Shown here: piece by piece, positions 3,025 through 12,916 of the stretch
Layout: each line of letters begins with the position of its first letter
How positions within the stretch are numbered: the first letter of the stretch is position 1
Source of the DNA: Candidatus Zixiibacteriota bacterium
GTDB taxonomy: Bacteria > Zixibacteria > MSB-5A5 > GN15 > FEB-12
Direction of reading: 5' to 3'
NCBI GenBank assembly: GCA_041742355.1
Contig: JBGSIV010000168.1
Coordinates: forward strand, 1-14,275
DNA: 14,275 nt
Notes under the pieces: generated by a model
What the model was told of the DNA's origin: nothing
The model's database searches: none
What the model saw: only the letters and a program-made list of their open reading frames with translations
Position numbers and translations under genes: made by a program

Positions 3025-3059
3025 TCTCCGACCGAAGCCCACAACGCTTCGGTCGGAGA
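3025..3059. repeat. Perfect 14-bp inverted repeat (stable intergenic hairpin, no U-tail)
   Basis: TCTCCGACCGAAGC (3025-3038), 7-nt loop, GCTTCGGTCGGAGA (3046-3059). Lies between the PLP-fold gene and the sugar transferase. Confidence 0.85.
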
Positions 3060-3062
3060 TGT

Positions 3063-3077
3063 GGAGGCACCGCTACG
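3063..3077 (-). promoter_or_regulatory. 3'-UTR box complementary to the translation-initiation region (4226-4240) of its own gene
   Basis: Plus strand GGAGGCACCGCTACG vs minus-strand initiation region GGAGGCAACGCCATG: 12/15 identical without gaps, and one mismatch is G-U compatible in RNA. Confidence 0.5.
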
Positions 3078-3109
3078 ATCATTCGAAAGGAGGTCGCTTT
3101 GTTCTTCCG

Positions 3110-4228
3110 TTACTTCTTGCCCGCTTCTTCCGGTTCCACCTCGGCCAGCCCGAACAGGTGGCGCGCCGCTACTCGGATACTCGGCTGATTAGGTTTTGTC
3201 TTCGGCTGACGTTTGGGCTGTCTCTGCACGGCAGGTTTCTGTTCCGTTTGAGCTTCTGTCGTCTGTGGCTCATGGCGCATGGTGATCTTCCGAAGGTCGA
3301 GCGACTTCATCCGGTAGGCCTCGGGGGGCATCGCCTCGAACGCCTGGATCAGCTTGTCGTTGGTCAGGGGGGACTGGACCCGGTAGCGGATGTAGTGCTG
3401 CATCGATGGATAGCCGTCGAGGTTCTCGATCGCCACCTTCGCCCGTGCGAGCTGGTTGCCCACCTGGGCCGGATCGGCGACCCGGATCAGAAGGAAGTCG
3501 GTTGCGGTGATGCGACTCTGCGCGCCGAGGCGCGTGAGGATGCTGGCGACGCGCAGCGACTCCTCATGCACTTCGCGCAGACGCATCGTCATGGCCTCGT
3601 CATTGGTGAGAGTCATCAGGATCACCTTGCGGATAGTGGCCGAAAACTCCTCTGCCGGAGCGAAATCGTTCATCGCCGCAATCATGGTCGGGTTGGAGAT
3701 CGCGAATCCCGAGGCCGACGACCGGATGCTGTAGGCCGAGGCGAACGAGCGCAGCAGAATCACCCGCGGGAATGATTCGATCAGTGGGAGACCGGTCACG
3801 CCGAAGAAGTCGTGGTAGTACTCATCGATAATGAGGGCGCCGTCCGGCACCGCCTCCGCCAGCTGCTTCAGGTCGGCCAGCGAGTAATTGGCGCCCGAGA
3901 CCTTGTTCGGGTTGGCGACATAGATGACGTCCCTGGGGGAGGAGACGCTATCGAGCACGGCCTTCAGGCTGCCTGAAAAGGGAGAGGGGCCGATGCTTTC
4001 GGTCAACTGCACCTCGGCGCGATTGGCGGCCGCCTCGATGTCCGGCTCGACATGCCCTGCCGCAAGCAGGCGGCACCCGGGCCGGTACAGCTGGCGCAGC
4101 AGGCCGGTGAGGAAGGGCACTGTCTCGGTGTACGGGCGAATCATGGCCCGGTTCGTCATCGTCTTGCGGGTGATCAGCGCGATCAGGTCATTCATGTCGG
4201 CGCTGCTGATAGTCTGGAGTGTGTTCAT
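3110..4228 (-). CDS. Class I/II aminotransferase-fold (HisC/CobD-like) protein lacking the Schiff-base lysine; probable pseudoenzyme
   Basis: VIYVANPNKVSG (cf. NPNNPTG), LIIDEYY (cf. VVDEAY), LRSFASAYSIRSSASGF (cf. RTFSKAYGLAGLRIGY), TDFLLI, YIRYRV. ATG 4228 has GGAGG 7 nt upstream. An in-frame GTG 4363 or ATG 4357 would add a Pro-rich extension. Q/K/P-rich C-terminal tail. Confidence 0.85.
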   Translation of the reverse strand: MNTLQTISSADMNDLIALITRKTMTNRAMIRPYTETVPFLTGLLRQLYRPGCRLLAAGHVEPDIEAAANRAEVQLTESIGPSPFSGSLKAVLDSVSSPRDVIYVANPNKVSGANYSLADLKQLAEAVPDGALIIDEYYHDFFGVTGLPLIESFPRVILLRSFASAYSIRSSASGFAISNPTMIAAMNDFAPAEEFSATIRKVILMTLTNDEAMTMRLREVHEESLRVASILTRLGAQSRITATDFLLIRVADPAQVGNQLARAKVAIENLDGYPSMQHYIRYRVQSPLTNDKLIQAFEAMPPEAYRMKSLDLRKITMRHEPQTTEAQTEQKPAVQRQPKRQPKTKPNQPSIRVAARHLFGLAEVEPEEAGKK

Positions 4229-4406
4229 GGCGTTGCCTCCCAGTGCGGCGGTCGGCCGCGGTTGTTGTGCGGTGTCATGGGGCGGCGGGACGGGTGTGCC
4301 GGAAGACCCCGCGGCAGGGCGCGGGAGTATGCGATCGACTTGTGGGTTTGAATGCATCGGCACAACGGTCCTTGTCGCTGCCTGATTATCCTTTGCCGGC
4401 AGTCAT

Positions 4407-4422
4407 TGCAAGCCCTGTGCCG
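4407..4422 (-). promoter_or_regulatory. Sigma-54 (-24/-12) promoter of the PLP-fold/sugar transferase/wzi unit
   Basis: Minus strand CGGCAC-AGGGC-TTGCA matches the GGCAC-N5-TTGC consensus. It is intergenic and correctly oriented. Confidence 0.75.
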
Positions 4423-4531
4423 TCCTGTGCGGGGATTGCACAGGCCGACCTAAGTGATTGTCGGTTTGGTGTTTATATCGGGTTGCGGGGATGTGTTTGA
4501 CCTCTTCACCTCCACCGGCGGCTTCCTTTCC

Positions 4532-4566
4532 GGCAGAAATTTCCTTTCCTTGCCGAAAATCCTTCC
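4532..4566. promoter_or_regulatory. Putative enhancer (bEBP) box pair
   Basis: GGCA-gaaat-TTCC (4532-4544) and CGAA-aatcc-TTCC (4554-4566), 22 bp apart, about 110 bp upstream of the -24 element. Same layout as 7164-7198. Confidence 0.55.
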
Positions 4567-4568
4567 CG

Positions 4569-4607
4569 AAAAAAGACCGCCGGCGGTGTGCGATCACCGC
4601 CGGCAGC
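4569..4607 (-). terminator. Rho-independent terminator of the SLBB gene
   Basis: GCCGGCGGTG/CACCGCCGGC 10-bp stem (extendable by G-U pairs), followed on the minus strand by TCTTTTTT. Confidence 0.8.
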
Positions 4608-4608
4608 T

Positions 4609-4633
4609 ACAGGAAGGTAAAGGAAACAAATGC
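4609..4633 (-). promoter_or_regulatory. 3'-UTR box complementary to the RBS of its own (SLBB) gene; forms a 12-bp perfect inverted repeat with 6993-7004
   Basis: ACAGGAAGGTAA (4609-4620) is the exact reverse complement of TTACCTTCCTGT (6993-7004). The flanking (A)GG and ATGC (4630-4633) also mirror GG-ccc-ATGC at the start. Confidence 0.65.
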
Positions 4634-4653
4634 TGGAATTTTTCTGGTATCGC

Positions 4654-6987
4654 CTACAGGTTGCCGATGATGTAGGCCGAGGTGACCAGGCCGGTGGTGG
4701 CGGTCAACACGGTCGTGATCGTCTTGAGCCAGTCTCGGTCGCGCTTGATTTCACTAGGGACCACGATAATATCGCCGAGCTGGACTTTCTTGCCGAGGAC
4801 GTCGTCGCCCGCGAACACTTCGCCGCCGGCACGAATCAGGCGCGTTCCGCCTTTGTCGGCCTGGCGGGTGAAGTTGCCCGCCCGCTGGATATAATCTTTC
4901 ACGCGGCGTCCCTCGACATACTTGAGCGTGCCGTTTGCGCCGACTGCACCCATGATCGAGATGCCCGACGGGGTGGGCGGCACGAAGATCCGGTCGCCCG
5001 GCTCGATCACCACGTCGCCATCGGCGCCATCGGTCGTCAGAATGCGCTCCATATCGATAATGATGCGGCTCATCGATTCCGGCTGAAAGGTGAAGATTGC
5101 CTCTTTCACCGGCACCCCCGCCGAGTCGAGAATGATCGGCTGCGAGTGTTCAACGAGTGTCGGCACGTTCAGCCGCCGGAGGCTCTCGCTGATCGAGCGG
5201 CGCTCATACACGAGACCTGTGGGAAACGCTGTCGGTGTGAAGCCGCCCGCCCGCTTGAGCAACTGGTAGAGCGTTTCATCCCGGTTGGCCAGCCAGTAGG
5301 TGCCCGGGAAGCGCACTTCGCCGGCGATCGTGACGCTGCGTTCGTTTTCCCACTCGGGAATCCGGCGGATGAATACGTGGTCGTCCTCATGCAGCGGCGT
5401 CCCCGCTCCGGTCGAATCCATCAGCGTCACGTAGCCGATAGTGACCCGGCCGAGGGAATCCAGCCGCGCCAGTTCGGCCTGGGTGCGGTCCGCTCCCCGC
5501 TGGAATGATCCGGCCAGGAAGATCAGGTCGCCCACCGTCATGCCCTCGTACAGGGGATACTTCCCCGGCCGTTCGACATCCCCCTCGACATACACATACT
5601 GCTCGCGCTTGACATCGTTGATGCTGTAGATGTGCAGGGAATCCCGATCGGTGAGGAAGATGTCGGACGAAGGATCTCCGGCCAAAGCCCCGGTCAGGTC
5701 GATCGGAATCACCTCGACCCGTCGATCCGGATAGCGGCGAAAAACATCGGCCCGATCGAAGTAGACGTCGTACGGGCGAAGCTGTCCCCGCTCGATGAGG
5801 TCGCTGACGCGGGTGGAGTCGGCTCGCTCGTAGTAGCCCGGGTGCTTAACGTGGCCGCAGATCGCGACCATATTCGTGCGGAGATCAAATATAGAGTACA
5901 CCGTTATCCGGTCGCCATCGACCAGCGCAACATCATCCCGCGAACGCGTCGAGTCGCTGCTCAGGTTGAGGTCGCGGACCTCCCACTCTCCCTGCTCGGT
6001 GATGCGTTCGAGCATGATGCGGTCGAGGTAGGCCTGGGGCGTCGGACGGCCCGCCAGCTCCAGGAGCTGCGTCACCGTTTCGCCGCCGCACAATTCGTAG
6101 AGGGCCGACCGTTTGACTTCGCCTCGGATCGCCACCCGCGTGCCGGCCACCGGCACGAACACCGCGTCGCCGGTGCGCAGCCGGATATCCGAGGCGTTGT
6201 TGCCGTTCAGGAGCAAATCGTACAGGTCGACGGACGCCACTGTCTCGCCGTTGCGCTTGACCGCGATCGTGCGCATCGATCCGCGTTCGTTCGGGCCGCC
6301 CGCCATGAAGATCGCGTTGAGCACCGAGGTCAGCGAAGAGACCGTGTAGGCGCCCGGCTGACGGACCTCGCCGGTGACATAGATCCGGATCGAACGGATT
6401 TTGCCGAGCGATACGGTCATGTCGAAGTCCGAGTAGACCCTGGCCAGGTGCTGCTTCATGCGGTCGGTGAACTGCTCGATCGTGAGTCCCCAGCCGACCA
6501 GATCCCCCGCCTTCGGGATGAACACTTTGCCTTCGCGATCGAGGGTGAGATTATATTCGCGTTCGACCCGGCCCCAGACGTAAACGAGGACGTTGTCGCC
6601 GGGGCCGAGGACGTAGTCATCGCTTGAGGCGATGTCGGCCGGAGGATTGAGTTCGACGGGCTGGGTGAAGAGCTCCATGCCGAAGGGGCGCAGTTCTTCG
6701 AACGGCACCGGCGCGGCCGATTGTTCAAACCCGGTTTGAACGACAGCCGCCGGCATCTGTGGTAATGCCTTCGGCAGTGTGAGCGAGTCTTCGCCGAAGA
6801 TCTGTGGGCTCTGGTAGACGGGGGGAGGAGCATCGGGTTTCGCCGCTCCGGCCGCCTCGTACTGCTGCTTGAGCCGGCTGAGTTCATCGGCGCTCAGCGA
6901 GCCGAGATCCTGTGCCCGCGCCGCGCGGAACCAGTTCAGCGAGACGAGCACAATTACGAGGATGATGAAGATGATCAGTTTTCGCAT
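4654..6987 (-). CDS. Polysaccharide export protein with Poly_export and multiple SLBB domains (large Wza/KpsD-like OPX protein)
   Basis: Signal peptide (ARA-Q), DYVLGPGDNVLVYVWG polysaccharide-export motif, repeated SLBB units (VTGEVRQPGAY, IRGEVKRSALY, ICGHVKHPGYY, VEGDVERPGKY, IAGEVRFPGTY, IMGAVGANG), C-terminal amphipathic helix. RBS AGGAAGG. Confidence 0.92.
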   Translation of the reverse strand: MRKLIIFIILVIVLVSLNWFRAARAQDLGSLSADELSRLKQQYEAAGAAKPDAPPPVYQSPQIFGEDSLTLPKALPQMPAAVVQTGFEQSAAPVPFEELRPFGMELFTQPVELNPPADIASSDDYVLGPGDNVLVYVWGRVEREYNLTLDREGKVFIPKAGDLVGWGLTIEQFTDRMKQHLARVYSDFDMTVSLGKIRSIRIYVTGEVRQPGAYTVSSLTSVLNAIFMAGGPNERGSMRTIAVKRNGETVASVDLYDLLLNGNNASDIRLRTGDAVFVPVAGTRVAIRGEVKRSALYELCGGETVTQLLELAGRPTPQAYLDRIMLERITEQGEWEVRDLNLSSDSTRSRDDVALVDGDRITVYSIFDLRTNMVAICGHVKHPGYYERADSTRVSDLIERGQLRPYDVYFDRADVFRRYPDRRVEVIPIDLTGALAGDPSSDIFLTDRDSLHIYSINDVKREQYVYVEGDVERPGKYPLYEGMTVGDLIFLAGSFQRGADRTQAELARLDSLGRVTIGYVTLMDSTGAGTPLHEDDHVFIRRIPEWENERSVTIAGEVRFPGTYWLANRDETLYQLLKRAGGFTPTAFPTGLVYERRSISESLRRLNVPTLVEHSQPIILDSAGVPVKEAIFTFQPESMSRIIIDMERILTTDGADGDVVIEPGDRIFVPPTPSGISIMGAVGANGTLKYVEGRRVKDYIQRAGNFTRQADKGGTRLIRAGGEVFAGDDVLGKKVQLGDIIVVPSEIKRDRDWLKTITTVLTATTGLVTSAYIIGNL

Positions 6988-7059
6988 GGGCCTTACCTTC
7001 CTGTGACAACTTCCACTTTGTCAGCGCGGTCGCACTCGGCGTCCGCACACCGGTGGTTT

Positions 7060-7075
7060 AGCAAGCCCGGTGCCA
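7060..7075 (-). promoter_or_regulatory. Sigma-54 (-24/-12) promoter of the SLBB gene
   Basis: Minus strand TGGCAC-CGGGC-TTGCT is a perfect consensus match, about 70 nt upstream of ATG 6987. Confidence 0.85.
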
Positions 7076-7163
7076 TTGGCGACAAAACCGTCCAACTGGT
7101 TGATCGTGCAGGGAATAGCCCGAGCTCTCGGTCGGTGCGACGTGCGGCGCGACTTCTGCGCTG

Positions 7164-7198
7164 GGCAAGGGCTTCCATGTTTGCGGGAATTGTTTTCC
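7164..7198. promoter_or_regulatory. Putative enhancer (bEBP) box pair
   Basis: GGCA-agggc-TTCC (7164-7176) and GGAA-ttgtt-TTCC (7186-7198), 22 bp apart, about 89 bp upstream of the -24 element. Confidence 0.55.
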
Positions 7199-7429
7199 GT
7201 CGCCGGGCATGTCGGGAGGCAGCGCTCGCGGTGGCCACGGGCTGTTGACGGTGGTGCCGTAACAGCAAAGAGGGCAATGCGTTTGAATTTGCCGAAATTA
7301 TTCTGAAGCGAAAGACAGGAAGTGCTTCACATCGGCGGGCCGATAACCGTCAGTGGAGAAGAAGTGCTAACGCGTTTTTTGGCATACGCTTAATTGGCAG
7401 TGCAGAAGAGTGGAATCAGGCGGAATTTC

Positions 7430-7458
7430 TTGACAAGTCATAGCCGTTGCTATAACTT
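7430..7458 (+). promoter_or_regulatory. Sigma-70-type promoter of the fadL-like operon
   Basis: TTGACA (7430-7435), then TAACTT at 17-bp spacing (7453-7458). An overlapping extended -10 TGcTATAAC lies at 7448-7456. Confidence 0.7.
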
Positions 7459-7612
7459 GACTGCCTGTTTGATTGACCGAAGCTGGGGAGGATGTGCCCC
7501 GCCTGCCCGTAGGCCAATTTCCGGGCCCGCCGAGACACCGTTGCCCGTGCAAGCTTCGAGAAGTGACAACGAGAGAGACATTTTAGATAGTTTACAAAAC
7601 ACGGAGATCAGG

Positions 7613-9124
7613 ATGGGAATTGCCAGATTCTCTGCCATTGTGTTGACCGTTCTGGTTTTGTTGGCCTCCGGGATTTACGCGAGCGGTTTCGAGAATTCGG
7701 GCATCGGCATGAAGGCGCGCGGCATGAGCGGCGCGTACCGTGCTATTGCCGATGATTGGAGCGCTGCGTACTACAACCCGGCCGGTTACGCCTGGATCTG
7801 GGACAACCAGCTCGGCTCCGCCTGGGCTTTTGTGCATCATCGCGACGAAATCGTCCCCGATGCCAGGTGGGGTGGAGTCTACGAGCGCGGGTTCTTCAAT
7901 GACCGCATCAACTATAACCACCACCAGATTCTCACTAATCCGTCCGGCGGCATTCTGCTGCGTCTGCCGGTAGCCGGCGAAACGGTGTTCGGTCTGAGCG
8001 CGTACCAGCGCTTCGACCAGAACATCACCTGGAAGCTGTTCCAGCCGGTCCGGTCTTACAGCGACAGCGTCAGCCTCCCGGGCGACCAGTTCAGCAGCAA
8101 CCTCGACGTGGTGTCGTTTCAGGTGACCGCTGCCCGCGAGCTGGTTCCCGAGAAGATGTCGATCGGTATCGGCCTGCAGCTGATGCGCGCGGATCTCGTG
8201 TACAGCAACATCTTCTTCCGCGAGAACCCGATCACCAATACGCCGGATGAACCGATTTGGGATATCATGCAGGACTTCCCCTACGACCGCATTCCGCAGT
8301 GGAATAAGAATGTCGGGCGCGGCTGGGGGTTCGGTTTGAACGCCGGTATCGTCACCAAGGTGAACGAGAAGCTTCGGGCCGGGTTCAGCTTCAACTATCC
8401 CTTCCCGATCACAGTCAGTGGTACGGCCCAGAGCGAGTTCTACCTTCCGGACAACTACACCCAGTGGCACGAGTCCGACTCCGCACAGGTCAACAACCCC
8501 GGGACGGTCGGTCAGCTTTTCCTTTCCGGTGCTGTCGTCCGTCCGCAGTATGATTTCGAAGTTGACCTCGACCTGCCGCCCTCGTTCGGCCTCGGGCTGT
8601 CGTATCAGGCGACCGAACGTCTGACGGTGGCGCTCGACGCCGAGTATACGCTCTGGTCGCAGTATGAAGGTCTCTCCTTCACGTATACCAACGCAACCAA
8701 CCTCTTCGGTCCGGCCGACACATCCGAGCTCGTGCGCAACTTCTTCACTGAAGACGTCAGCGCTCCGGCCGATTGGGCTAATGCCGCGAAGATCATGGTC
8801 GGTCTGGCCTACGAATTCCCGAAGTTCCTCACTCCCGACCTCGGCCTGACCGTCGTCGGCGGTGCTTCGGCGGACCAGTCCCCCACGCGCGACTCCAAAG
8901 AGCTGACGCCCCAGTTTATTGACACGCGCAACAAGCTCGGCTTCAGCCTCGGCGGTATCGTCCACATCCAGCAGTGGGATCTCGGCCTGGTCACCTCTTA
9001 CACTCGCGCCCAGTCCGGCGAAGCGAATGTTCTTAAGATGGACGGGGAGTCGTTTGCCAGCCTCGCCGGTGACTACCGGGCGGAGACCTATGAAACTATC
9101 CTCTCCTTTAACTATCGGTTTTAG
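7613..9124 (+). CDS. OMPP1/FadL/TodX-family outer-membrane transporter for hydrophobic substrates
   Basis: Signal peptide (IYA-SGF), N-terminal hatch motif GMKARGMSGAYRAIADDWSAAYYNPAG, LDLPPSFGLGLSY, LDAEYTLWS, C-terminal FNYRF beta-signal. ATG 7613 has GGAG upstream; the track's 7394 start overlaps the promoter. Confidence 0.9.
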   Translation: MGIARFSAIVLTVLVLLASGIYASGFENSGIGMKARGMSGAYRAIADDWSAAYYNPAGYAWIWDNQLGSAWAFVHHRDEIVPDARWGGVYERGFFNDRINYNHHQILTNPSGGILLRLPVAGETVFGLSAYQRFDQNITWKLFQPVRSYSDSVSLPGDQFSSNLDVVSFQVTAARELVPEKMSIGIGLQLMRADLVYSNIFFRENPITNTPDEPIWDIMQDFPYDRIPQWNKNVGRGWGFGLNAGIVTKVNEKLRAGFSFNYPFPITVSGTAQSEFYLPDNYTQWHESDSAQVNNPGTVGQLFLSGAVVRPQYDFEVDLDLPPSFGLGLSYQATERLTVALDAEYTLWSQYEGLSFTYTNATNLFGPADTSELVRNFFTEDVSAPADWANAAKIMVGLAYEFPKFLTPDLGLTVVGGASADQSPTRDSKELTPQFIDTRNKLGFSLGGIVHIQQWDLGLVTSYTRAQSGEANVLKMDGESFASLAGDYRAETYETILSFNYRF

Positions 9125-9135
9125 GGAGGCCGGAG

Positions 9136-10437
9136 ATGCGAAGTATGACAAAACTGATCTTGAGCGCTCTGCTGCTGAGCCTTCTCCTGGTGTCGGGGTG
9201 CACCGATCGCGGCAGCAACTCCGCCCCCGAATACAACGGCAACAGCGGTCGTTTGATCCTCAATCACGTCTTCTTCTGGGAGATGGTTGTTCAGATCAAG
9301 AACGAGTCGCAGTTGACCTTCCCGCAAGCCTGGGTGCCGAATGTCGGCGTGTGGGGCGCCCCCCCCAACTACACCCCCGACCGGCAACTTCCGCTGCTGA
9401 TTCTCCTCCCGCCTCAGGGCGGCGACCAGCACTACTACTTCAACCATGGGCTGGCTCAGGTCGCCAACGAACTGCTGACCGAGGGCCTGATTGAGCCGAT
9501 GGTGATCGTCACGCCCGCCAATGAGCAGACCTTTGGCGGCTACTGGTGGGCCGGCAGCGGCGGCGGCGCGGGCAACTACGACACGCTTGTCGGCGGTACT
9601 ATGCTCGATTGGATTTGGGCCAGTGCGCTTGGCACAAATGCCTTCGATACCACGCAGGCGATGACCGGCATCGGCGGAATCGGTGAAGGCGCCTACGGCG
9701 CGTTTCGCGCCGCCATGAAGCACCCCGGGCGCTTCGGATCGATCAGCGCGATCGACGGCCCCCTTGATTTCGACGGTGTTGACGGCGCCAGTGGCCTGAT
9801 CAACCTGTTCGACGACGTTCTCAATGAGCAGGATCTGCTCGGGGACGAGGACTACCTGGTCAAGTTTGACAGCTCCGGCCAGTTCCAGCTTGGCCGTCTC
9901 TTCATCGGCGGCGCCCTCGCGTTTTCGCCGAACGATACGTTGGTGAGCCCGGTCATCACTGCTCTGCCGGCCGGCGGCTTCAGTGTGACTGTACCCGACT
10001 CGGTACGCTTCAGAATTCTGGGCACGGCCGGCCTGGACACCGCGATCATTCAGGTGGACAACGACAATTTCGATTTCCATCTGCCCTTTGACAAGGACGG
10101 CAACCCGATCAACGAGCCCGATGCTCCGATCTGGGATCTGTGGATGCGCAACAGCCTCGACAAGATGTACCATGCCTACCATCGTAGCGGCGAGGACTTC
10201 AACGATGTCGATCTGTGGTTCGCCACCGCGATCCAGAACGACCCGCTCGGCTACAACAAGATGACCCAGGCGTTTATCCAGTTGCTGCGCAGCTACGGCT
10301 ACGAACCGGACGTGAAGTTCTACGACGGTTACCCGGGCAACCCTGCGTACACCGACGAGTACCTGAACCATCTGCTGCGAGAGATGCTCATCTTCCATTC
10401 GAACGCGTTCAAGAGAGCACAGCAGGACGCGGAATAA
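9136..10437 (+). CDS. Lipoprotein with alpha/beta-hydrolase (Fes/putative esterase-like) fold and degenerate catalytic residues
   Basis: Lipobox LVSG-C. PPNY...LPLLILLPP, IEPMVIVTP and GIGGIGEGAYGAFRAAMKHPGRFGSISAIDG (cf. AIAGxSMGGYGA...HPxxF). SD GGAGG 6 nt upstream; 11 nt after the fadL stop. Confidence 0.82.
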   Translation: MRSMTKLILSALLLSLLLVSGCTDRGSNSAPEYNGNSGRLILNHVFFWEMVVQIKNESQLTFPQAWVPNVGVWGAPPNYTPDRQLPLLILLPPQGGDQHYYFNHGLAQVANELLTEGLIEPMVIVTPANEQTFGGYWWAGSGGGAGNYDTLVGGTMLDWIWASALGTNAFDTTQAMTGIGGIGEGAYGAFRAAMKHPGRFGSISAIDGPLDFDGVDGASGLINLFDDVLNEQDLLGDEDYLVKFDSSGQFQLGRLFIGGALAFSPNDTLVSPVITALPAGGFSVTVPDSVRFRILGTAGLDTAIIQVDNDNFDFHLPFDKDGNPINEPDAPIWDLWMRNSLDKMYHAYHRSGEDFNDVDLWFATAIQNDPLGYNKMTQAFIQLLRSYGYEPDVKFYDGYPGNPAYTDEYLNHLLREMLIFHSNAFKRAQQDAE

Positions 10438-10460
10438 CGCCATCTGATTCGATCAACACC

Positions 10461-10494
10461 AGCCCGGAGAGCGTTCTTCTCCGGGCTTTTTTTT
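10461..10494 (+). terminator. Rho-independent terminator after the esterase-like gene
   Basis: AGCCCGGAGA/TCTCCGGGCT stem, 7-nt loop, run of 8 T (10487-10494). Confidence 0.88.
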
Positions 10495-10507
10495 GAGGGA
10501 CACGGCC

Positions 10508-11230
10508 ATGGAAGAGAACCGACCTTACGACCTGCTTTCGGTCGGCGCACATCCCGATGATGTTGAAGTGGGGACCGGCGGCGTGCTGATCGACGCCTCC
10601 AAGCGGGGTTACCGGGCCGCCATCGCCATTCTCACTGAAGGGGAAATGGGCACGGGTGGCACGGCAGAGATCCGCCGCCAGGAGGTCCTGTCCGCCGCCG
10701 CCATTCTCGGCGCCGACGTAATAGCCCGTTTCAACTGGGGGGACACCCGCCTTGAGGACACGCACGAACACCGCTGCGCCCTCGCCGCTGTTATCCGCCA
10801 GACTCGCCCGCGCATCATGCTCGCGCCCTACCCGCATGTCGGTCACGGCCGGCGCCAGTCGCACCCGGACCATGTCGCTTCAGGCATCCTGGCGATCAAC
10901 GCCGCTAATCTCGCCGCCCTGCGGAAAGCCGATATCCCGGGCGAACCGCACCTCGTCACCCGCATTTTCCATTACTTCCTCCCGCCGGGCGTCTTCCCCA
11001 ATTTCGTGGTCGATATCACCCCCCATGTCGACCGCTGGATAGAGGCGCTCTCGGCTCACCGCTCGCAGTTTCTCAATCCCGAGAAATCGCGCGATTACAT
11101 CGAGAGCATCACGGCGTCGGCGCGGTCGATGGGCCTCCTGTCGCGATGCAAATATGGCCAGGCGTTCTATGCTGTCGAGCCGATCCTCGTCACCGACATC
11201 ATGACACTCGCCGAGAGCTGGGAGGGCTGA
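10508..11230 (+). CDS. bshB1: PIG-L family deacetylase, bacillithiol biosynthesis deacetylase BshB1-like
   Basis: DLLSVGAHPDDVEVGTGG, LTEGEMGTGGTAEIRRQE, IRQTRPRIML, HPDH, PNFVVDIT, AHRSQF. ATG 10508 has GAGGGA upstream. Confidence 0.8.
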   Translation: MEENRPYDLLSVGAHPDDVEVGTGGVLIDASKRGYRAAIAILTEGEMGTGGTAEIRRQEVLSAAAILGADVIARFNWGDTRLEDTHEHRCALAAVIRQTRPRIMLAPYPHVGHGRRQSHPDHVASGILAINAANLAALRKADIPGEPHLVTRIFHYFLPPGVFPNFVVDITPHVDRWIEALSAHRSQFLNPEKSRDYIESITASARSMGLLSRCKYGQAFYAVEPILVTDIMTLAESWEG

Positions 11231-11265
11231 ACTGTCCGCTATTCTACTGTTTAGACTGACAGAAT

Positions 11266-11303
11266 ACAAAAGAGGCGATACCGTCCGGTACCGCCTCTTC
11301 TCT
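11266..11303. terminator. Terminator between convergent bshB1 and tlpA (best on the minus strand, possibly bidirectional)
   Basis: AAGAGGCGaTACC-gtcc-GGTAcCGCCTCTT. The single mismatch is a G-U pair on the minus strand, which ends TTTTGTATTCT. Confidence 0.78.
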
Positions 11304-11309
11304 ATTAAT

Positions 11310-11324
11310 AGTGGAAATCTTGTG
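11310..11324 (-). promoter_or_regulatory. 3'-UTR box complementary to the translation-initiation region (12873-12889) of tlpA
   Basis: Plus strand AGtGGAaAT--CTTGTG vs minus-strand initiation region AGAGGAGATgcCTTGTG: 14 pairs including one G-U, one mismatch and a 2-nt bulge. Confidence 0.45.
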
Positions 11325-11351
11325 GTCAGCGTCTGTTCTGAATGGCCCCGC

Positions 11352-12875
11352 CTAGATCTGCCCCGACAACGCCTTCTGGATCAGCGGATCGAGGCTCTCG
11401 CCCCGGCAATCGTCATGAAGCCCGATCAGCGCGCCATCCTTGCCGATAAGGAACGGCGACGGAATGGAACTGACGGCGTACGCCAGGGTGAGCGGGCTTT
11501 CCCAGTTCATCTCGTCGTAAACATGCCGCCAGACCATGCCGTTTTCGGTGATCCACTGACGGTAGGCTTCCTGCGAAGTTTCTTTTGGGTAGTCCAGCGA
11601 TATCGAGAGGATCTCGAAGCCCTGCTTGTTGTACTTCTCGTAGGCCGCTTTCAGGTAGGGCAGTTCCACCCGGCAGGGGCCGCACCAGGTCGCCCAGAAA
11701 TCGACCAGCACCACTTTCCCTTTGTAGGAAGCCAGCGAAACCTGCTTGCCGTCGATATCGGTCGTGTTGATAGCGATCGGCCAGTTGGCTTTCACCATGT
11801 CGGGAGCCATGAGGATACCTGCCGCACCCATGGCACCCTTATCCGTGCTGTACTTTATCGCGAATTCGCGTACCTGCGGATAGAAGTCGGCCCGGTTGTC
11901 GCCGGCCGCCGCCAGTTTCGATCCCAGCAGCCACGCTTCGGCGCTGCCGTATTTCTTCGAGACCGGGTCCATCTGACCGAAGTACTTCTCCGCCTTGGTG
12001 TATGCGAGTTGCCCCTCCGGCGTGCCGGTTTTCGCCGGGCCGTAGTGCATCAGGGCAGCTACGACGCCGCGGAAGAGCGCTTCAGAGGCGTTGTCGGCGC
12101 TCGGCTGCTTGGCCAGATAGGCGTCGACTTCACTCATAATTGTCGCGCACAGCGGCCCCCAACTTTCCTTGTACGGCGACTGGAGCCGGCTCATGGTCAG
12201 GATGCGTTCGAGATCGTAATCAAACGTCTCCGGCTGCAGCGATTCCATCGCGGCAAGGCGCTTGGCCTCCAGGTCCATCTGGGCCGCCGATACCTGCCAC
12301 TGGTGCCGCACCCGGTTGTTGGCGCGGAGAATCCCCTGCTGTTCTTCCAGCCAGGCGATCAGGGCCACCGTGTCGGTGAACTGCTGCGGGGGAGCGTCGT
12401 AGCGGGGAAGACCGATAGCCAGCAGCTTCTGCTTCGCGGCGTCCGTTGCGCGGGCTTTGTCGACGAGAGAGGTAAACCGGGCGTCGCCGCGAAGCGGCTC
12501 GAGGTCGGTATCCTGCTCCATGTGGCCGGCGTCGGTCCAGCCGTTGGCTACAGCTGTATCGAGGCAGGCGAACGCGGCATCGACATCTCCTGCCTTGCTG
12601 TAGGCGCAAGCGAGGTTGTAGTGCCCCCACCGCCCGGCCGGGATCAGCGCCGCCTGCTTGGTGAACGCCGCGATAGCCTCATCGAACTTCGCCTCCTGCA
12701 TGGCGGCGTAGCCCTCGTTGTTCAACGCTCCGTACTGCTCCAGCACGGCCGGATCGTAGTTCGGCGGCAACTCAAGGCCGCTGGCGGCCTGCTCGGCCTT
12801 GGAACAACCGAGGGCCGACAGCGTCAATACCGTACCCACCGCCGCAATCGCTAGAATTGACACGAATTTCCGCAC
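11352..12875 (-). CDS. Lipoprotein with N-terminal TPR-like region and C-terminal TlpA/ResA-family thiol-disulfide oxidoreductase domain
   Basis: GTG 12875 with AGAGGAG 7 nt upstream; lipobox ALG-C. TPR-type YNLACAYSKAGDVDAAFACL...DTDLEPLRGDARF. Redoxin motifs YKGKVVLVDFWATWCGPC, GFEILSISLD, VSSIP. Confidence 0.9.
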   Translation of the reverse strand: MRKFVSILAIAAVGTVLTLSALGCSKAEQAASGLELPPNYDPAVLEQYGALNNEGYAAMQEAKFDEAIAAFTKQAALIPAGRWGHYNLACAYSKAGDVDAAFACLDTAVANGWTDAGHMEQDTDLEPLRGDARFTSLVDKARATDAAKQKLLAIGLPRYDAPPQQFTDTVALIAWLEEQQGILRANNRVRHQWQVSAAQMDLEAKRLAAMESLQPETFDYDLERILTMSRLQSPYKESWGPLCATIMSEVDAYLAKQPSADNASEALFRGVVAALMHYGPAKTGTPEGQLAYTKAEKYFGQMDPVSKKYGSAEAWLLGSKLAAAGDNRADFYPQVREFAIKYSTDKGAMGAAGILMAPDMVKANWPIAINTTDIDGKQVSLASYKGKVVLVDFWATWCGPCRVELPYLKAAYEKYNKQGFEILSISLDYPKETSQEAYRQWITENGMVWRHVYDEMNWESPLTLAYAVSSIPSPFLIGKDGALIGLHDDCRGESLDPLIQKALSGQI

Positions 12876-12916
12876 AAGGCATCTCCTCTTAGGCAATTGA
12901 TCCGTGATTTTCGCTC

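What the first reader, a model, noticed from the sequence alone, without database searches (positions are those of the whole stretch)
3063..12889. Recurrent architecture 'stop - anti-own-RBS box - hairpin': candidate general 3'-to-5' fold-back mRNA control system
Seen: in functionally unrelated genes, the short 3'-UTR just before the terminal hairpin is complementary to that same gene's SD and start codon. The pairs are SLBB (4609-4633 vs 6984-7004), PLP-fold gene (3063-3077 vs 4226-4240), tlpA (11310-11324 vs 12873-12889) and, more weakly, the fadL operon (10440-10449 vs 7606-7616). Each box differs in sequence and follows its own gene's spacer and start codon (including the GTG of tlpA), so it is more than a generic CCUCC. 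Several mismatches are G-U compatible, which points to RNA pairing. Known: 3'-5' pairing that occludes translation is described for individual mRNAs (S. aureus icaR; type I toxin mRNAs such as hok and aapA). I do not know of it as a routine feature of neighbouring ordinary genes. Inference: completed transcripts close into a loop that shuts off initiation or creates an RNase III substrate. Translation would then be restricted to nascent or 3'-processed mRNA, capping output per transcript. Most affected products are exported envelope proteins.
Basis: partly seen in the sequence, partly recalled or inferred. Interest (0 to 1): 0.88.

Follow-up and report, generated by a model that had tools for sequence, protein, structure and literature searches.

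The report
Conserved mRNA tail masks own start
In an uncultured bacterial order, the message for a polysaccharide-export protein, and that for one giant secreted protein, end in a short conserved tail complementary to their own ribosome-binding site, probably a built-in brake on translation; this is a feature of a few genes, not the general system first proposed.

Summary
The four pairs are in the sequence, but they are not one system. Genome-wide, cognate start/3'-UTR pairs score like non-cognate ones (38 of 760 at p<0.05, 38 expected). tlpA (0 of 8 orthologues) and fadL (0 of 18) are chance. The PLP-fold pair is genus-limited and uncertain.

The Wza/SLBB pair is real. It ranks first of 760. 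Across the order, 76 of 82 orthologues with a terminator region keep a helix of at least 7 bp between the RBS (GGAAGGU) and a box about 3 nt before the terminator. Flanks change together (14.2 double changes on tree branches against 3.9 off-register). Where wza heads an operon, the box sits about 5.7 kb away at the operon end.

A second, unrelated gene outside the window (giant T9SS-tail protein) has its own conserved box, lost where its RBS changed.

Best reading: a gene-specific, icaR-like 3'-to-5' brake on finished transcripts. A released 3'-UTR sRNA (CarZ-like, though Hfq was found in 0 of 31 genomes) is the close rival. No expression data were available. The scan noted similar tails before in phages.

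The parts
4654..6987 (-). wza-like polysaccharide export gene (Poly_export plus five SLBB stretches), 777 aa
6984..7004 (-). RBS and start of wza; core 12 nt at 6993-7004 is the target of the box
   Evidence: GGAAGG core conserved across the order
4609..4633 (-). anti-own-RBS box in the wza 3' UTR; core 4609-4620 is perfectly complementary to 6993-7004; pyrimidine-rich, predicted largely unpaired in its own UTR
4570..4607 (-). intrinsic terminator of wza (13-bp stem 4576-4607, U-tail)
7060..7075 (-). sigma-54-type promoter motif upstream of wza (consensus recalled); similar motif upstream in 64 of 90 orthologues
3110..4228 (-). PLP-fold (HisC-like, below curated cut-offs) gene directly downstream of wza
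4226..4240 (-). RBS and start of the PLP-fold gene
3063..3077 (-). candidate anti-RBS box of the PLP-fold gene; echoed in 1-2 of 3 genus relatives, uncertain
3025..3059 (-). strong hairpin without U-tail after the PLP-fold gene
4407..4422 (-). sigma-54-type promoter motif upstream of the PLP-fold gene (consensus recalled)
11310..11324 (-). tlpA 'box' (partner 12873-12889): chance-level, not conserved
10440..10449 (+). fadL-operon 'box' (partner 7606-7616): chance-level, not conserved

Best explanation
A few selected envelope-gene transcripts of this order carry, just before the terminator, a gene-specific antisense box for their own RBS. The nascent message is translated freely because the box does not exist yet. 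Once the terminator is reached, the tail folds back in cis (about 10 bp, near -18 kcal/mol, often reaching over the AUG), blocks new 30S loading and exposes the message to decay. Output per transcript is limited and falls quickly when the sigma-54 promoter shuts. Shown: complementarity, conservation, covariation, position at the transcript end, gene specificity, rarity. Inferred: pairing in vivo, cis geometry, repression, the nuclease involved.
For: wza is rank 1 of 760. 76 of 82 order genomes with a terminator region keep at least 7 contiguous pairs, median 10. Column +7 pairs in 58 of 70 rows against 29.2 permuted, as A-U 28, G-C 27, U-A 3. 14.2 double changes on single branches against 3.9 +/- 1.8 off-register, 0 of 20,000. 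The box lies a median 3 nt before the hairpin (65 rows) and about 5.7 kb away at the operon end in family f3. Second gene: 14 of 14 orthologues with the canonical RBS have the box, 5 of the other 8 lack it, 1 is compensated. Each box prefers its own RBS (19 of 19, 17 of 19). Hfq 0 of 31. The helix is in the MFE of the predicted 2,480-nt message. Distant anti-SD sequences repress in cis in B. subtilis (PMC12697547, Results part 1).
Against: Nothing here separates cis from trans. The cis effect falls with distance (44% at >500 nt), and these messages span 2.4 to about 12 kb. In family f4 the 16-nt box is invariant and does not track its own RBS (residual +0.3, p=0.84, 13 rows), which suggests a second constraint. 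The column +7 change is mostly one clade event, and the independent-pairs test had only 4 pairs (2 same way, 0 opposite). G-U against A-C is 22 to 15. Three f3 rows pair only with bulges or not at all, and 8 of 90 genomes gave no terminator region.
Confidence: 0.5

Rival explanations
1. The tail is cut off (RNase E/G or Y) as a stable 50-80 nt small RNA, seed plus terminator, that represses its parental mRNA in trans as negative feedback, as CarZ does, and perhaps other mRNAs.
For: The seed-plus-terminator anatomy and indifference to gene length fit. RNase E/G and RNase Y are present. The box is conserved beyond what the own RBS needs (f4). A gene between flgC and fliE is the top predicted target in G000 (-29.3) and scores p<0.05 in 5 of 15 relatives, residual p=0.008. 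CarZ pairs with the first gene of its own operon (PMC7398697, abstract and passages).
Against: OppZ and CarZ depend on Hfq, which was found in 0 of 31 genomes. The flagellar-operon match is absent in the three genus relatives (p 0.15-0.73). The nuoJ match is not conserved in the 6 homologues printed. One-mismatch complements in five f4 genomes point to no shared gene.
Confidence: 0.3
2. The end-to-end helix protects rather than represses: it shields the leader from endonucleases and stores an inactive message, as described for B. subtilis hbs.
For: A 14-bp 5'/3'-UTR helix modulates RNase Y cleavage in hbs (PMC5737220 abstract; PMC7821165 passage). RNase Y is present in 9 of 9 genomes.
Against: Here the helix covers the SD itself in nearly all orthologues; SD masking lowered both mRNA and translation in PMC12697547.
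Confidence: 0.1
3. A general genome-wide fold-back system.
For: Two adjacent genes of the window rank 1 and 4 of 760; the two top pairs of a stricter test are both conserved.
Against: No enrichment in any class; upper bound about 20-30 of 760; tlpA, fadL and six further top candidates not conserved.
Confidence: 0.03
4. No RNA pairing: chance, a DNA inverted repeat, an RBS for an antisense reading frame, or two independently conserved protein-binding motifs (e.g. a CsrA site).
For: The invariant core gives no covariation by itself; an antisense ATG follows in 40 of 70 rows; CsrA is encoded.
Against: In-register double changes, co-loss in the second gene, and the move to the operon end. Antisense frames run 2-292 codons with no common length. 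ANGGA (recalled motif) is in only 34 of 90 wza leaders.
Confidence: 0.07

Closest known systems
icaR 5'/3'-UTR pairing, Staphylococcus aureus (PMC3868564; start of abstract and passages read)
   Same: A 3'-UTR anti-SD motif complementary to the SD of the same mRNA; linked to exopolysaccharide; cis or trans left open there too.
   Different: icaR: 7-nt motif 260 nt into a long UTR, absent from other staphylococci. Here: about 10 bp, a median 3 nt before the terminator, conserved and covarying across an order, 2.4 to about 12 kb apart, following the operon end, in two unrelated genes. No experiment here.
CarZ and OppZ autoregulatory 3'-UTR sRNAs, Vibrio cholerae (PMC7398697 abstract and passages; PMC9438474 passages)
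   Same: The 3' end of an operon pairs with the RBS region of its own operon; feedback needs full transcription.
   Different: Those are RNase E-released and Hfq-dependent; Hfq was found in 0 of 31 genomes here, and no fragment has been seen.
Long-range anti-SD folding, Bacillus subtilis (PMC12697547; abstract, Results part 1 of 2, Discussion read)
   Same: Gives the physical basis: distant anti-SD sequences pair with the RBS, lower translation and speed decay.
   Different: Synthetic inserts within coding sequences, and such motifs are depleted in natural genes; here they are kept by selection at the transcript end.
hbs 5'/3'-UTR helix, B. subtilis (PMC5737220; abstract only)
   Same: 14-bp end-to-end helix in one mRNA.
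   Different: Acts on an RNase Y site in the leader and protects; not conserved in close relatives (PMC7821165 passage).
Fold-back inhibition in type I toxin mRNAs (hok, aapA; recalled, not read)
   Same: 3' end silences the full-length message.
   Different: Toxin messages are short, need 3' trimming to activate and have an antitoxin RNA; none of this is seen here.

Membership tests
icaR-type 5'/3'-UTR anti-RBS pairing | 3'-UTR motif complementary to the SD of the same mRNA | tested here: met
   (wza and the giant secreted-protein gene)
icaR-type 5'/3'-UTR anti-RBS pairing | Sequence-specific pairing shown by compensatory change | tested here: met
   Natural compensatory changes only: 14.2 against 3.9, 0 of 20,000; not so within family f4
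icaR-type 5'/3'-UTR anti-RBS pairing | Inhibits initiation and lowers protein in vivo | not testable with these tools
   needs reporters or toeprinting
icaR-type 5'/3'-UTR anti-RBS pairing | Duplex cleaved by RNase III | tested here: inconclusive
   RNase III in 9 of 9 genomes; contiguous helix median 10 bp, short for a substrate by recalled rules; cleavage not testable
Autoregulatory 3'-UTR-derived sRNA (CarZ/OppZ) | Discrete RNA released from the mRNA 3' end | not testable with these tools
   needs RNA-end data
Autoregulatory 3'-UTR-derived sRNA (CarZ/OppZ) | Hfq dependence | tested here: not met
   PF17209 in 0 of 31 genomes, 5 of 14 controls positive; ProQ and other chaperones not searched
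Autoregulatory 3'-UTR-derived sRNA (CarZ/OppZ) | Seed next to an intrinsic terminator, complementary to the parental operon's RBS | tested here: met
Rfam RNA families | Match to a curated model | tested here: not met
   0 matches at E<=1 in the window
General genome-wide fold-back system (proposed) | Cognate pairs beat non-cognate pairs across genes | tested here: not met

The most novel reading that the evidence does not exclude
An order-wide, Hfq-independent class of 'self-addressed' transcript tails: each of a few costly envelope messages, up to about 12 kb long, carries its own antisense address at the terminator, moves it when operons are rearranged, and uses it as a completion-triggered switch-off. 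The wza tail may also reach a flagellar-operon gene in trans, linking polysaccharide export to motility.
Probability: 0.3. Interest if true: 0.78.

Novelty: new variant of a known kind. Interest (0 to 1): 0.6.

Why it matters
Natural 5'/3'-UTR pairings in bacteria are known from a handful of messages, and a review notes that hbs and other functional 3' UTRs are not conserved in close relatives (PMC7821165). Here two cellular genes keep such a pairing across an order, with compensatory changes, over kilobases, and the box follows the transcript end. That gives ready-made natural allele pairs to test how far RBS masking reaches and whether it works in cis or in trans without Hfq. It also gives a search rule: look at the extreme tail of cognate scores, then at orthologues. 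The negative result matters too: fold-back is not routine, at most a few percent of terminated genes in this genome.

Tried and rejected
General enrichment: three scoring schemes and four operon classes, all null. Generic anti-SD before hairpins: CCUCC in 17 of 819 against 14.3 +/- 3.7 shuffled. Restriction to sigma-54 genes: 2 of 9 such transcript heads low, both from this window. tlpA 0 of 8 and fadL 0 of 18 orthologous pairs at p<0.05. Other top candidates: MFS gene, beta-propeller gene, rpiB, purL, hslU and C70:6970-8328 not conserved, on 1-5 relatives each; C33:6434-9235 had only one partial distant hit and was not evaluated; three further fetched candidates (C237, C98, C157) were not searched. 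Antisense reading frame and CsrA-site explanations rejected. Trans targets: nuoJ not conserved (script stopped before the last rows); f4 pattern search gave no shared gene. Rfam: nothing. The independent-pairs test was underpowered; the IQ-TREE run did not finish, so a FastTree tree was used. Sequencing runs: no RNA holder listed. Other orders: no box seen next to wza in 20 genomes, but 4 had no start called, most are operonic and transcript ends were mostly not reached, and part of the output was cut, so this is weak.
Full report
Context. The window is G000:C168 (4.37 Mb, 60% GC). It holds, on the minus strand, a wza-like export gene (4654-6987), a PLP-fold gene, a WcaJ-type sugar transferase and a Wzi-like gene; on the plus strand fadL, an esterase and a BshB1-like deacetylase; then tlpA and an M3 peptidase. 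The one full-length relative returned from named genomes (46% identity) is titled Candidatus Zixiibacteriota, so the lineage is probably Zixibacteria (inference). Genes were called with my own hexamer and RBS model (3,477 genes) and hairpins with a simple finder (932); both are approximate.

Observation. The four pairs exist. Against non-cognate gene starts, wza scores p=0.003 and 0.001, PLP 0.056 and 0.002, tlpA 0.48 and 0.20, fadL 0.30 and 0.25. wza ranks first of 760 with a 12-bp Watson-Crick run (0.03 expected genome-wide); PLP ranks fourth.

The general claim fails. 38 of 760 cognate pairs reach p<0.05, with 38 expected; operon heads 9 of 174, with 8.7 expected. An all-against-all stacking score gives 41 or 44 of 760. 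Using only the 20 nt before the hairpin, no class is enriched, and CCUCC is not enriched (17 of 819 against 14.3). A hairpin-adjacent helix score gives 5 of 1,032 at 8 or more (5.0 expected) but 2 at 10 or more (0.47 expected). The test detects 14 of 19 wza orthologues, so at most about 20-30 of 760 genes can carry a box of that strength. Orthologues of tlpA (0 of 8) and fadL (0 of 18) show nothing.

The wza pair is conserved. All 20 first loci (family f1) carry ACCUUC before the terminator, 19 of them ACCUUCC. 133 of 151 order genomes have the gene; I analysed 93, of which 3 had no start called. Of the 90 left, 82 gave a terminator region (13 placed by hand) and 8 did not. 76 of the 82 keep at least 7 contiguous pairs, median 10; six of these pairs follow from anchoring on the two cores, and the three f2 rows were mis-anchored. 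The box ends a median 3 nt before the hairpin (65 rows). In family f3, wza heads an operon and no box follows it; a box lies about 5.7 kb downstream before the operon terminator, clean in 4 of 7 genomes with a terminator region, bulged in 2 and missing in 1. In 20 genomes of other orders no box was seen, a weak result.

The two sites change together. Among 70 distinct rows (4 dropped for a changed core), column +7 pairs in 58 against 29.2 permuted (A-U 28, G-C 27, U-A 3), column -1 in 50 against 35.3, column -2 in 40 against 22.9, column +6 in 62 against 55.9. On a FastTree tree of 75 rows (f2 left out), five columns chosen after that result show about 9 Watson-Crick-to-Watson-Crick double changes on single branches against 1.5 off-register. 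All 14 variable columns, unchosen, give 14.2 against 3.9 +/- 1.8, reached by 0 of 20,000 derangements. U-A became A-U at +6 on three separate branches. In G037 both cores changed and still pair over 14 bp. Against this: the +7 change is largely one clade event; the independent-pairs test had 4 pairs only; family f4 keeps an invariant 16-nt box that does not track its own RBS (p=0.84); G-U outnumbers A-C only 22 to 15.

A second gene. The runner-up, G000:C150:1444-8208, encodes a 2,254-aa secreted protein with a T9SS-type tail, matched in 55 of 61 order genomes. 23 of 30 3' ends examined carry UUUCCU just before the terminator. Of 22 genomes with both ends, all 14 with the RBS GGAGGAAAG have the CUUUCCU box; of the other 8, five lack it, one is compensated, and two keep it with an uncertain start. 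The cognate residual is -4.0 kcal/mol, 0 of 10,000 permutations. Each box prefers its own gene's RBS (19 of 19 and 17 of 19). Codon 5 is GGG in 7 of the 8 rows with glycine there and can pair with a CCC run in 6 of those tails (read; GGG is 18% of early glycine codons); this is suggestive only.

PLP-fold gene. A hairpin with a preceding box occurs only in the genus: G001 has a compensated 9-bp helix (p=0.006 by helix length, 0.11 by energy), G002 a partial one, G003 none before the hairpin; 0 of 7 reach p<0.05 by whole-UTR energy. About even odds.

Mechanism. Pairing is well supported (about 0.9); its consequence is inferred. Masking the SD should block initiation and speed decay, as measured for distant anti-SD inserts in B. 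subtilis (PMC12697547; abstract, Results part 1 of 2 and Discussion read). Because the box is made last, only finished messages are silenced. For cis: no Hfq in 31 genomes, gene specificity, and the helix in the whole-message MFE. For a released sRNA: length independence, seed-plus-terminator anatomy, RNase E/G and Y present, the over-conserved f4 box, and a partial lead to a gene between flgC and fliE (5 of 15 relatives at p<0.05 on G000's background, none of the three genus relatives). RNase III is present (9 of 9).

Known and new. It works like icaR (PMC3868564, passages) and has the layout of CarZ (PMC7398697, abstract and passages; PMC9438474 passages). hbs (PMC5737220 abstract), PMC7821165 (passages), PMC11780869 (passages) and bioRxiv 10.1101/2025.09.11.675593 (passages) were also seen; no supplements were opened. 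Seven searches listed no such element for wza or this lineage; the library lacks most subscription papers. Earlier notes of this scan describe similar covarying tails in phages, unchecked, one of them partly overturned; none was listed for look-alikes of this stretch.

Verdict. The general system is refuted. A rare, gene-specific, order-wide anti-own-RBS tail is supported for wza and one other envelope gene. New variant of a known kind; interest 0.6.

Noticed in passing
L217:425-462 and 7207-7260 (G000:C150:1444-8208): Giant secreted protein with T9SS-type tail, one per genome in most of the order and very variable in length, with its own conserved anti-RBS box.
   Followed up: yes
L185:1667-2030 (G000:C207:16166-16495): 109-aa gene of no known family between flgC and fliE; its RBS is the best predicted trans target of the wza box in G000 and in 5 of 15 relatives, not in the genus relatives.
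   Followed up: partly
window 7060-7075 and 4407-4422 (-): Sigma-54-type promoter motifs before wza and the PLP-fold gene; only 15 genes of the genome matched this pattern.
   Followed up: partly
window 4530-4570 and 7186-7198: GGAA...TTTT/TTCC motifs after the wza terminator recur in most orthologues, and a GGAA-N5-TTCC palindrome lies upstream of wza; candidate sites for an enhancer-binding activator.
   Followed up: no
window 3110-4228 (-): The PLP-fold protein seems to lack the catalytic lysine of the HisC-type motif (motif recalled, read) and scores far below all curated cut-offs; possibly a non-enzymatic regulator kept next to wza in family f1.
   Followed up: no
L277-L306, just after the giant gene's terminator: A TTGTGGTA/TTATGGTA-like motif follows the terminator in most of 30 genomes; possibly a promoter or operator of the next gene.
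   Followed up: no
window 11268-11301: One hairpin seems to serve as terminator for both the BshB1-like gene and tlpA.
   Followed up: no
G000:C77 and C106: Two 16S 3' ends that differ upstream of a standard anti-SD tail.
   Followed up: no
L065 (G028), about 90 nt upstream of the wza start: In this f2 genome the box matches a site near the predicted transcript 5' end better than the SD (read).
   Followed up: no
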